A program made the translations under genes and the position numbers. A stretch of DNA of 64,000 nt from Bdellovibrionota bacterium (GTDB taxonomy: Bacteria > Bdellovibrionota_C > UBA2361 > JBGSMV01). The stretch spans positions 1 through 64,000 of the forward strand of contig JBIKWF010000004.1 in assembly GCA_044356455.1 (NCBI GenBank), read 5' to 3'. Positions 1 to 57,838 of the stretch are shown piece by piece. The first letter of the stretch is position 1. The number at the start of each line of letters is the position of its first letter. The notes below the pieces were generated by a model, which was not told where the DNA came from, made no database searches, and saw nothing but the letters and a program-made list of their open reading frames with translations.

Positions 1-119
1 CTGCGGTAATGCGCAAGCTCGCTATACGCCTAAATACCAGGATGAAAGCGTATCTCAACCCTCCAGCGGTACCGGCTTAAAAATAACTTACTTTCCTCTT
101 GCTTTTGAACACAGCCGCT
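1..119 (+). mobile_element. Right end of an IS110-family element: transposase C-terminus (<1..80) plus right non-coding end terminating at a CT core
   Basis: Frame 3 reads AVMRKLAIRLNTRMKAYLNPPAVPA* (stop 78-80), matching the IS110 C-terminal A-x-M-R-K-L motif. It is followed by CTTGCTTTTGAACACAGCCG-CT and then a left-truncated palindromic repeat. Confidence 0.75.
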
Positions 120-192
120 CTGTGGTTTTCAGCAATTCAAATCAACCACAGAGGGCACAGAGTTCACAGAGCGGTCTCTTTTAGAGGCTTCC
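118..192. repeat. Family A MITE-like palindromic repeat, copy 1 (left part missing)
   Basis: CTCTGTGGTTTTC..AACCACAGAGGGCACAGAGTTCACAGAG..TTTTAGAGGCTTCC aligns with the right two-thirds of the intact copy at 57701-57838. Confidence 0.9.
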
Positions 193-2341
193 AAGCAATT
201 CGGTCGCGGCGGACCAAGACTACACACACAAGGACAGCCATAAGCACGAACCACGGTCTCAGACCACTTGGCTGATATTCAAACGAAATGCGATGAACCC
301 CTGGGCCGGCCTTGACCGCAAGGAATCCTGGGGTAACTGAGAAAACTTCCTGAGAAACTCCGTTTATTTGGGCAGTCCAGCCTGGGTGATAACCGGTGCG
401 AAATACCACAATCGCCTCGCGGCTAAGTTCAACAACGCCCGAGACTCTTTGACTCTCCCACTGAGACTGCCCGAGGACTCTGCCAGGGGCGATATTCTGC
501 ACCGGCACATCGAGAGAAAGAGAGGCAAACGGCAGCGCTAAAGTTGTTTTGGAAAGTAAGCCCTGAGTAATTTTCCCGAACGCATGTTGTGCAGGGAGTT
601 CGCTATTTACCCACGACTGCAAGTATCGCACCGTATCCTTGGCGTTGCCCCAGCCTTCAAAGGCGAGATCTTCCACTGAGAGAGCATCCGCGCCCGGGTA
701 CTCACTGAGCTGCATCTGCCCTATCTGGGCTAAGGGTTTTAAGAAGCTTGGTAGTCTCCAAGTAGTTGGCGATACCGAGTACCGTACCCCAAAAAGCTTG
801 TAGTCACTCTCACGCTCCGGCGAGAACTCAAACAATAGATCTCCGGCGAGCCCCATCGAGTGAAATAGCATGCCGAGGGTAGGCACGCCCTCGGCGACAA
901 GAAGATGATAAAGGGGCGCGAGGTCGGCGATCCTGGTTTCATGAGACCAGGATTTTCTCATGCCTGCATGCACCCAGGCGTGTGGTAACGCTTTTAGTCG
1001 ATTTGTGATTTCTTGATCTGCTGGTTCGCTAACCTTAGCGGCTTCGACGCGCGCAATGAGTGCATGGGCATCGTTAAAGGTTCGCAGCAGCCCATGTGCT
1101 GGCATCACCAAAGCGAGAGCCAGAAGGAATGCACGAAGCTGGGGGGAGGGGAAGAACGACAGAAATTTTCCTGCGCCGTATCCCGCAAGGAGTACGCCGC
1201 AAATTTGCAACGGAAGAATAAAGCGATGAAGGTGCATGGCGCTTAAAAACGAGAGGTTCTCAAACAACCACCCCCACACCTGGTAGCCGCACAAAAGGCT
1301 TCCCCAGGTGAATAGACAGAGTGAAATCACGGCGGCACTGGAATCAGCATTAGTTGCCGATTGTCGCCATCTAAGCGCTGCCCACCAAGCGGCGCAAACC
1401 ATCGCTAATCCGATTAGCAGAAACCCGGTAATTAAAGGGAGTCTGCCGAGATCGAAAAGCCCCCCGGAAATAAAATTGGAGAAGACCCAATCAGCGCCCC
1501 TAGAGGCGAACTTCCACTCTGGCTCTAAGGTGCTGCGATGGATAACACTCCGGTCAGCGAGGATATATACCCACTGATGAGCGGTAATCAGCATGAAAGT
1601 GAGCAGCGCGAGCGAGAGTCGCCGCAGCGCGGTAAGTTTATCGATATTCCTTGTAAGCGAAAAATAGCAAAGAGCAATTACAACCGTACCAATAACAATA
1701 TAGGCGGAGAGGATATGTGAACCAACGGCTAGAAAGGTAACGGCTGCTAACACGCCGCCTCGTTTTTCGCCTCGCACAAACGCAACGCCGTAGGCTATCG
1801 CGGGCACGAGGAACACTACCGCCCAGAGCTGCATGATTATGCCGTGAGTGCCCCAGAGATAATTGCGAAGGCCAAGGCCGTAACCGCCCTGTTCTACCAA
1901 AAACGGCGAAAAGGCGGCGCACGCGAGCGCTGCCCACCATGAGAGTTGAAGCACTCGTGCGGCGTGAAAAAAGACCCAGGGAATTATTGCGGCGAGAGCT
2001 AATGTGAAACAGGGAAGAAGAGTTTCAAGGTTAATCAGTCCGCCCAACAAGCGGTACGTCCCGTAAATAATCAGATGAGGGAGGTATTGATACGAGCGAA
2101 AAAGAGCGTACCCAAACGGGCTTGCATCAAACCAGAAGTCAAAAGCACTTCCGCCACTGCGTACTACCTCATCCAGTTGTTGAAGCACTGCTAAATGCAG
2201 CGTTACATCGCTAAACTGCACAAGTCCTGGGCGGAGTTCGGCGAAAAAGCCCCAGGCTATAAAGACACTTAGTGCGCAGAGGAGAGCGCTAGCGAGAACG
2301 CGCTCAAGGCACGACGGTTCGCAATCTGTCCCTTTCGTCAT
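164..2341 (-). CDS. YfhO-like polytopic membrane protein (putative GT-C fold glycosyltransferase)
   Basis: 725 aa with many TM segments; C-terminal YHPGWTAQING..PGFLAV..GPGVHRISFEY motif. The last 9 codons lie inside repeat copy 1. Confidence 0.7.
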   Translation of the reverse strand: MTKGTDCEPSCLERVLASALLCALSVFIAWGFFAELRPGLVQFSDVTLHLAVLQQLDEVVRSGGSAFDFWFDASPFGYALFRSYQYLPHLIIYGTYRLLGGLINLETLLPCFTLALAAIIPWVFFHAARVLQLSWWAALACAAFSPFLVEQGGYGLGLRNYLWGTHGIIMQLWAVVFLVPAIAYGVAFVRGEKRGGVLAAVTFLAVGSHILSAYIVIGTVVIALCYFSLTRNIDKLTALRRLSLALLTFMLITAHQWVYILADRSVIHRSTLEPEWKFASRGADWVFSNFISGGLFDLGRLPLITGFLLIGLAMVCAAWWAALRWRQSATNADSSAAVISLCLFTWGSLLCGYQVWGWLFENLSFLSAMHLHRFILPLQICGVLLAGYGAGKFLSFFPSPQLRAFLLALALVMPAHGLLRTFNDAHALIARVEAAKVSEPADQEITNRLKALPHAWVHAGMRKSWSHETRIADLAPLYHLLVAEGVPTLGMLFHSMGLAGDLLFEFSPERESDYKLFGVRYSVSPTTWRLPSFLKPLAQIGQMQLSEYPGADALSVEDLAFEGWGNAKDTVRYLQSWVNSELPAQHAFGKITQGLLSKTTLALPFASLSLDVPVQNIAPGRVLGQSQWESQRVSGVVELSREAIVVFRTGYHPGWTAQINGVSQEVFSVTPGFLAVKAGPGVHRISFEYQPSGLRPWFVLMAVLVCVVLVRRDRIAWKPLKETAL

Positions 2342-10388: not shown

Positions 10389-10525
10389 CTAGGGAAGCTC
10401 CGAAGAAATCCACTCTGTGAACTCTGTGCCCTCTGTGGTTGATTTAAATTGTTGAAAAACCACAGAGGACACAGAGTTCACAGAGAGAAAAAATAAAATA
10501 TCGAGGTTTTTCAGAGGTTCCCTAG
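10389..10525. repeat. Family A MITE-like repeat, copy 2 (complete, CTAG at both ends)
   Basis: CTAG-GGAAGCTCCGAAGAAA..(CTCTGTG)x3..AT-rich spacer..(CACAGAG)x3..TTTTTCAGAGGTTCC-CTAG. Confidence 0.95.
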
Positions 10526-26101: not shown

Positions 26102-26222
26102 GGAACCGTTAAAAACCAACCTCTGTGTACCTCTGGGCCCTCTGTGGTGAAATTTTGTCAAGAAATTCACCACAGAGGACACGAAGGTACACAGAGGTGT
26201 AGTAAGAATAGAGATTCCCTAG
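26098..26222. repeat. Family A repeat, copy 3 (subtype with 10/9-bp units), starting on the TAG stop of the oxygenase gene
   Basis: CTAG-GGAACCGTTAAAAA..CCTCTGTGTA CCTCTGGGC CCTCTGTGGTG..CACCACAGAGG ACACGAAGG TACACAGAGG..GATTCC-CTAG. Confidence 0.9.
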
Positions 26223-55828: not shown

Positions 55829-55952
55829 GGGGAGTTTTTCAAAACCTCGATATTCTATTTCATCGCTCTGTGATCTCTGTGTCCTCTGTGGTTTTTCAAC
55901 AATTTAAACTAACCACAGAGTTCACAGAGTGGACTTTTTCAGAGCTTCCTTA
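55829..55952. repeat. Family A repeat, copy 5
   Basis: (CTCTGTG)x3..(CACAGAG)x2..TTTTTCAGAGCTTCCTTA; ends on the stop codon of the adjacent gene. Confidence 0.9.
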
Positions 55953-56748: not shown

Positions 56749-56885
56749 TTAGGGATTCTCTTAAAAAGTCCGCTCTGTGAGCTCTGTGCCCTCTGTGGTT
56801 GATTTAAATTGTTGAAAAACCACAGAGGACACAGAGCTCACAGAGGGAAAAAATAAAATAGCGATGTTTTTCAGAGGTTCCTTAG
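56749..56885. repeat. Family A repeat, copy 6 (TTAG at both ends)
   Basis: Near-identical to 10389-10525; ends on the stop codon of the GT2 gene. Confidence 0.95.
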
Positions 56886-57700: not shown

Positions 57701-57838
57701 TTAGGGAACCTCTGAAAAGCCACGATATTTTATTTTTCTCACTCTGTGATCTCTGTGTCCTCTGTGGTTTTTCAACAATTTAAATCAACCACAGAGGGCA
57801 CAGAGTTCACAGAGTGGACTTTTTCATAGGTTCCTAAG
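57701..57838. repeat. Family A repeat, copy 7 (opposite orientation to copy 6)
   Basis: TTAGGGAACCTCTGAAAA..(CTCTGTG)x3..(CACAGAG)x3..TTTTCATAGGTTCCTAAG. Confidence 0.95.

What the first reader, a model, noticed from the sequence alone, without database searches (positions are those of the whole stretch)
1..171. IS110 element end sits at a CT dinucleotide inside the palindromic repeat
Seen: an IS110-like C-terminus and right end run into repeat copy 1 precisely at the CT that corresponds to ..GTGTC-CT-CTGTGG.. in intact copies; the left part of the repeat is missing. A TTGCTT hexamer lies at 99-104. Established: IS621-type IS110 recombinases use a bridge RNA, a CT core and REP targets, and form a promoter across the circle junction. 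Inference: this IS110 is programmed against the triplet-palindrome family, so the other copies here are unoccupied targets and the target guide sequence is predictable.
Basis: partly seen in the sequence, partly recalled or inferred. Interest (0 to 1): 0.7.

Follow-up and report, generated by a model that had tools for sequence, protein, structure and literature searches.

The report
RNA-guided insertion sequence in palindromic repeat
This is the right end of a small jumping gene of the bridge-RNA (IS110) type, whose guide RNA matches an abundant palindromic repeat so that its copies land at the same two letters of that repeat; it is a clear natural example of a known mechanism, not a new one.

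Summary
Confirmed. The contig starts inside the element, so its body is unassembled. Window 1-119 recurs identically at 4 contig ends, each entering a different repeat copy at the same CT. Four other contig ends carry the missing repeat half, a CT and a shared left end. That left end holds a target-binding-loop-like stem with both predicted guides: right guide 7/7, left guide 7/8. Public runs show a ~1.25-kb element; in one run it enters a repeat copy that is empty in this genome. Complete IS110 relatives share the donor motif, junction promoter layout and guide-target matching. Refinements: the target is a palindrome inside a ~131-bp MITE-like element. All observed insertions use the GTGTC arm variant, which leaves 5 best empty sites in the window. 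Not seen: this element's own catalytic domains and donor-binding loop. REP-targeting IS110s are published, and the scan noted a MITE-targeting bridge element before in another genome. New member of a known kind.

The parts
3..80 (+). Last 25 codons and stop of the IS110 recombinase (rest unassembled)
81..117 (+). Non-coding right end (37 nt)
   Evidence: identical at 4 contig ends
99..104 (+). -35-like hexamer (3/6 to consensus); would sit 17 nt from a -10-like hexamer of the left end in the circle
   Evidence: same position as a TTGA-starting hexamer in 16 of 16 distinct complete relatives
111..117 (+). Left donor sequence ACAGCCG
   Evidence: same 7-mer before the core in protein-found relatives, one with a C>T change mirrored in its donor guide
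118..119 (+). CT core, element/target junction
118..124 (+). Right target CTCTGTG, complementary 7/7 to the right target guide in the left end (on contigs C157, C175, C192, C28)
118..191 (.). Right part of the interrupted palindromic MITE-like repeat (loop, second arm 144-173, degenerate terminal inverted repeat about 178-191)
164..2341 (-). Neighbouring YfhO-like membrane protein gene; its stop codon lies in the repeat's second arm; not interrupted by the element
10461..10474 (-). Empty best-match target site (GTGTC type, 1 mismatch to left guide)
26171..26184 (-). Empty best-match target site
55877..55890 (+). Empty best-match target site
56821..56834 (-). Empty best-match target site
57753..57766 (+). 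Empty best-match target site

Best explanation
Window 1-119 is the right end of a ~1.24-kb IS110-group (IS621-type) insertion sequence present in about 4-6 identical copies. Inferred by analogy with IS621: it excises as a circle; the joined ends form a sigma70-like promoter that transcribes a bridge RNA from the left end; the RNA's target-binding loop pairs with both strands around a CT in the GTGTC-CT-CTGTG arm of a genome-wide palindromic repeat; and the recombinase integrates the circle there. Shown here: the junctions, multiple identical copies, the fixed site, the guide-target match, and a site occupied in one run and empty in this genome. Inferred: the ORF's catalytic domains, the donor-binding loop, circle formation, transcription, and that these left and right ends are one element.
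For: 4 identical right ends and 4 identical left ends, all at the same CT of the repeat. Right guide 7/7 and left guide 7/8 against the occupied flanks. The two letters after the right guide are complementary to donor positions 6-7 of this window's right end, as the handshake pairing in PMC11208158 predicts. A covariance model built only from 14 relatives ranks the C192 left end first in the genome, 24.3 bits, E 0.02. Element contigs of 1252-1609 nt at about 4-7 times flank depth in 4 of 4 runs; complete relatives measure 1170-1250 bp. Run X3's element enters the copy at C201, which is intact in G000. Relatives with PF01548+PF02371 and the same donor motif carry different guides that match their own targets: 26 of 30 non-core positions for 6 distinct elements against 15.2 when permuted, 2 of 720 permutations as high.
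Against: No PF01548 or PF02371 match in the genome, and the protein was not among 501 proteins retrieved, so no catalytic residue was seen. No contig shown to me joins the left end to the right end. The model hit is modest, with the next hits at 22.8 and 22.5 bits and only 150 of 976 candidates scored. The left end folds only weakly better than shuffles (z -1.6 to -1.7), and its minimum-energy fold pairs the guides partly with each other. The left guide starts one base later than in most relatives and does not match the second core base. Both promoter hexamers are only 3/6. The four left and four right halves do not pair perfectly by repeat subtype. Right guides of relatives were picked as best matches in a window, so that permutation test is partly circular.
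Confidence: 0.92

Rival explanations
1. Same ends and same targeting, but this element is a defective derivative (broken ORF) moved in trans by another IS110 recombinase.
For: The body was never seen; promoter hexamers are weaker than in relatives.
Against: Full autonomous length, 100% identity among copies, an intact-looking C-terminus, and no IS110 domain elsewhere in the assembly (93% complete).
Confidence: 0.04
2. The left ends (C157, C175, C192, C28) belong to a second IS110 element with the same target, so the guides found are not this element's.
For: No joining contig was visible; subtype pairing leaves one left and one right half unmatched; synteny with G001 and G002 was uninformative.
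Against: Exactly one left-end family and one right-end family, 4 copies each. The handshake letters fit this right end. 94 of 100 intact window-type repeat copies have a C157-like left half. Record lengths fit one element of about 1238 bp plus 5-10 shared flank bases (inference).
Confidence: 0.03
3. Not an IS110: a repeat-collapse artefact or a chance resemblance of a short frame.
For: The peptide alone hits nothing in Pfam or PDB; the locus is a contig end.
Against: The junction recurs at one base in 4 contigs and in 4 of 4 runs. The same junction motif marks complete IS110 elements elsewhere.
Confidence: 0.01

Closest known systems
IS621 (E. coli), IS110 group bridge recombinase (PMC11208160, PMC11208158)
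   Same: CT core; bridge RNA in the left end with left and right target guides; -35 in the right end and -10 in the left end; handshake positions after the right guide; inserts into a palindromic repeat; similar layout
   Different: Different guides and target; 7-nt fully matched right guide; one extra base before the left guide; target is the inner palindrome of a MITE-like element rather than an E. coli REP; recombinase not seen
ISPpu9 and ISPpu10 (Pseudomonas putida), REP-targeting IS110 elements (PMC12288879; bioRxiv 10.64898/2026.03.19.712850)
   Same: All copies at one position of an abundant intergenic palindromic repeat; target can form a hairpin
   Different: Other host and repeat. 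ISPpu10's stem-loop lies 5' of the left target, whereas here the whole target is one arm of a long hairpin whose loop lies on the right. Whether structure matters here is untested.
Unnamed IS110 relatives found here (L036, L037, L041-L046 from the same order; L058-L074 from metagenomes; right ends in G019)
   Same: Donor 7-mer, CT core, junction promoter layout, ~1.2-kb size, two-loop left end; several target the same CTCTGTG-type repeats
   Different: No DNA similarity to window 1-119 in 60 related genomes; the window's element could not be placed on their tree

Membership tests
IS110 group (IS621-type) | Recombinase with DEDD RuvC-like domain (PF01548) and serine domain (PF02371) | tested here: inconclusive
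   Body unassembled: 0 hits in the genome, protein not retrieved. Only the C-terminal 25 residues match IS110 C-termini. A relative with the same donor end has both domains.
IS110 group (IS621-type) | Short core (CT) at both ends, shared with the target, no longer duplication | tested here: met
   4 of 4 left and 4 of 4 right junctions
IS110 group (IS621-type) | Long left non-coding end with bridge RNA, short right end | tested here: met
   Right end 37 nt; at least 120 nt of shared left end with a 5' hairpin and a target-loop-like stem
IS110 group (IS621-type) | Target-binding loop guides match the insertion flanks | tested here: met
   Right guide 7/7, left guide 7/8, at model-aligned positions
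IS110 group (IS621-type) | Donor-binding loop guides match the joined ends | not testable with these tools
   Left-end contigs stop after the target loop. Present in relatives, where my search anchor partly imposed the match.
IS110 group (IS621-type) | Sigma70-like promoter across the circle junction | tested here: inconclusive
   Position and 17-nt spacing as in 16 of 16 relatives, but only 3/6 in each hexamer; no RNA data
IS110 group (IS621-type) | Circular intermediate and RNA-dependent recombination | not testable with these tools
   Needs junction PCR or a recombination assay
IS1111 group | Bridge RNA downstream of the transposase gene (PMC12288879) | tested here: not met
   Only 37 nt follow the stop codon; the guides are in the left end
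MITE (the target repeat) | Terminal inverted repeats and target-site duplication | tested here: met
   188 of 250 palindromes have both terminal repeats; 101 of 188 have identical 4-nt flanks against 39 shuffled (max 57 of 1000); 125 of 188 are YTAR on both sides
MITE (the target repeat) | Cognate autonomous IS5-type transposase | not tested
   Claimed by earlier scan notes; not checked here

The most novel reading that the evidence does not exclude
The CTCTGTG triplet palindrome is a shared, undescribed landing pad. Separate IS110 lineages have independently tuned their bridge guides to it (here to a compromise between its arm variants), and a group II intron uses the same repeat. In this genome the repeat is itself carried by a MITE, so a mobile element spreads the target of two other RNA-guided elements. 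This would be a natural series for studying guide retargeting, wobble and register slips.
Probability: 0.35. Interest if true: 0.55.

Novelty: new member of a known kind. Interest (0 to 1): 0.33.

Why it matters
It is a clean natural confirmation of the bridge-RNA rules: a guide predicted from a junction was found on other contigs, and an empty repeat copy is occupied in another population. It adds a repeat-targeting IS110 with about 200 candidate sites per genome, and it shows three mobile elements nested on one repeat. It does not change the known mechanism.

Tried and rejected
Recovering the element's body failed. There was no match to a 28-nt window pattern in metagenome contigs and none to window 1-119 in 60 related genomes. 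The protein was not among the hits (checked), and the 11 loci were not used. Rfam has no family for these ends. Synteny with G001 and G002 did not identify the partner left junction. No RNA holder was listed. A promoter scan of 1-400 found nothing, but the junction is not in the window. My first duplication test was off by one base (0 of 188) and was corrected. One search timed out and was redone; one search stopped part-way. Of 18 metagenome and 2 viral pattern hits, 11 had the donor-loop anchor and were used; 9 were left out as partial, unanchored or probably chance. A preference for perfect guide matches was not seen: the 34 perfect sites in the genome are all empty, as chance allows. A role for the target hairpin cannot be separated, since 189 of 201 GTGTC sites lie in hairpins. 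Independent retargeting was not shown: the 10 metagenome CTCTGTG-targeting proteins form one clade and this element could not be placed.

Full report
Observation. The window is base 1 onward of contig C211 of a 4.7-Mb, 216-contig genome, so nothing lies upstream. Frame 3-80 ends a protein, 37 non-coding bases follow with TTGCTT at 99-104 and ACAGCCG at 111-117, and the CT at 118-119 opens the right part of a palindromic repeat. Window 1-119 recurs at 100% identity at the ends of C207, C206 and C203. All 4 matches stop at base 119 and continue into different copies of the repeat. This is a multi-copy element that broke the assembly and always sits at one position of the repeat.

Is it IS110? 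The genome has no PF02371 or PF01548 match (93% complete), and the 25 residues alone hit nothing in Pfam or PDB. An HMM of 317 IS110 C-termini ranks this frame first of 175,164 frames (E 0.008, next 2.6), with the caveat that those proteins were gathered partly with this peptide. The closest C-terminus is that of P0048, a PF01548+PF02371 protein. The element's own protein was not among 501 proteins retrieved. Public lake-water runs hold the element as one contig of 1252, 1278, 1609 and 1298 nt, at roughly 5.3, 3.8, 5.6-6.9 and 4.7 times the depth of the flank (4 of 4 runs; the tool warns that depth is no copy number, and X1 may be the source sample). Complete relatives measure 1170-1250 bp core to core (17 rows with both ends).

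The left end. Clustering all contig ends gave four ends (C157, C175, C192, C28) that share 117-122 nt. All four are preceded by the missing left half of the repeat, ending GTGTC-CT, and there are exactly four copies. The shared part has a 5' hairpin and then a stem enclosing CCGTGTCC and CACAGAG. PMC11208160 (sections 6 and 7 and 12 passages read) describes a left guide of 8-9 nt that pairs with the bottom strand and a right guide of 4-7 nt that pairs with the top strand around a CT core. Here the right guide is the exact complement of the 7 bases from the core onward at all four right junctions. The left guide matches 7 of 8 positions at all four left junctions; it is a compromise between the CTGTGTC and TCGTGTC variants found there. 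PMC11208158 (12 passages read) says the two bases after the right guide pair with donor positions 6-7 after strand exchange; here they are CG, complementary to window 116-117. Joined in a circle, TTGCTT would lie 17 nt from TAAGTT. 16 of 16 distinct complete relatives have a TTGA-starting hexamer and a TAT-starting hexamer at these positions, but this element's hexamers are only 3/6 each. A covariance model from 14 relatives (structure supplied by me; 84% of cells paired, 14 of 15 pairs with changes on both sides) ranks the C192 end first in the genome (24.3 bits, E 0.02; next 22.8; 150 of 976 candidates scored) and aligns both guides to the model's guide columns. Against this, the fold is only weakly better than shuffles (z -1.57 and -1.66), and its minimum-energy form pairs the guides partly with each other. 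The donor-binding loop lies beyond the contig ends. No contig shown to me joins left to right. 94 of 100 intact window-type repeat copies have a C157-like left half, so C157 is the likely partner; one left and one right half remain unmatched by subtype, which suggests a fifth copy.

Relatives. Family and protein searches in the same order gave IS110 elements with the same donor motif but other targets. Their left guides match their own flanks 8 of 8 in 6 of 8 elements, 7 in one and 6 in one. Right guides match their own targets at 26 of 30 non-core positions for 6 distinct elements, against 15.2 when permuted (2 of 720 as high; guides were picked as best match in a window, so this is partly circular). 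A junction pattern found 18 metagenome stretches; 11 carry the donor-loop anchor, and 9 of these have the same right guide as the window's element, one a wobble-compatible variant and one a single mismatch (two are the same element). Genome G019, in another family of the order, has three such right ends at contig ends. Targeting of this repeat by IS110 is therefore widespread. The 10 metagenome proteins form one clade (99/97), separate from the same-order elements; the window's element could not be placed.

Are other copies targets? In run X3 the element contig continues into a repeat copy whose first 25 loose letters match only C201 in this genome, where the site is intact and reads CTGTGTC-CT-CTGTGG. 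That is a site empty here and occupied in another population. The genome has 201 GTGTC-type and 221 GTGCC-type 12-mers. All 4 left junctions and the X3 site are GTGTC (p about 0.05 for 4 and 0.025 for 5), so the preference is suggestive only; a guide U could still wobble-pair at GTGCC sites. The window has 5 empty one-mismatch sites and 7 two-mismatch sites, one of them the second arm of the occupied copy.

The repeat. Earlier scan notes called a repeat of this genome an IS5-type MITE. I tested the anatomy: of 250 palindromes, 243 have at least one terminal repeat and 188 have both, median length 131 bp (background match rate 1.3%). 101 of 188 have identical 4-nt flanks against 39 when shuffled, and 125 are YTAR on both sides. 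I did not look for the IS5 transposase. A group II intron also enters this repeat. The insertion at 118 lies about 45 nt past the stop codon of a convergent YfhO-like gene and leaves it intact.

Mechanism. Shown: junctions, copies, fixed site, guide match, polymorphic occupancy. Inferred from IS621: excision as a circle, a junction promoter, bridge-RNA transcription, and recombination at the CT by a DEDD/serine tetramer. A target-hairpin requirement, as reported for ISPpu10 (bioRxiv 10.64898/2026.03.19.712850, abstract and section 7 read, supplements closed), cannot be separated here because 189 of 201 sites are in hairpins.

Comparison and verdict. IS110 insertion into palindromic repeats is established for IS621, ISPpu9 (PMC12288879, 12 passages read) and ISPpu10. 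PMC13396178 was opened, but the passages shown were not relevant and nothing rests on it. I found no paper on this repeat or on a MITE as a bridge target in five searches of the held library. The library lacks most subscription papers, and the supplementary tables of PMC11208160, which may list such elements, were not read. An earlier scan note reports a MITE-end-targeting bridge element in a cyanobacterium (not checked). Verdict: observation confirmed, interpretation supported, new member of a known kind, interest 0.33.

Noticed in passing
G000 contig ends C63, C85, C99, C155, C171 (3' ends) and C120, C153, C154, C2, C211 near 95.5 kb (candidate 5' ends): A multi-copy group II intron appears to use the same repeat family, entering its second arm at a fixed position in most copies. 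Domain V-VI matches RF00029 at 31.4 bits (E 0.0013, below the gathering score of 40) in 2 of the 3 3' ends scanned; the candidate 5' end does not begin with the usual GUGYG (recalled consensus).
   Followed up: partly
window 164-166: The YfhO-like gene (164-2341, minus strand) takes its last codons and stop from the repeat's terminal part and second arm.
   Followed up: no
L058, L067, L071, L074 left junctions: Related IS110 elements sit in repeat variants with 8-nt units, where the left target is slipped 1-2 nt against the guide; L059 and L067 are the same element at a 9-nt and an 8-nt variant.
   Followed up: partly
G000 contig ends: Many other multi-copy elements break this assembly, among them at least two more group II intron-like ends and several IS-like ends, some also at fixed positions of other short repeats.
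   Followed up: no
window 29514-49547: A second dispersed repeat family (71-137 nt, 4-6 copies, families D1 and D2), unrelated to the CTCTGTG palindrome.
   Followed up: no
window 118, run X1: A 50-nt loose end before 118 reads as an intact left repeat half resembling C157's. It may be the empty allele of this very site in that population.
   Followed up: partly
L041 (G004:C102): IS110 relative in the same family whose right end lacks the donor 7-mer that its own donor guide specifies; possibly truncated.
   Followed up: no
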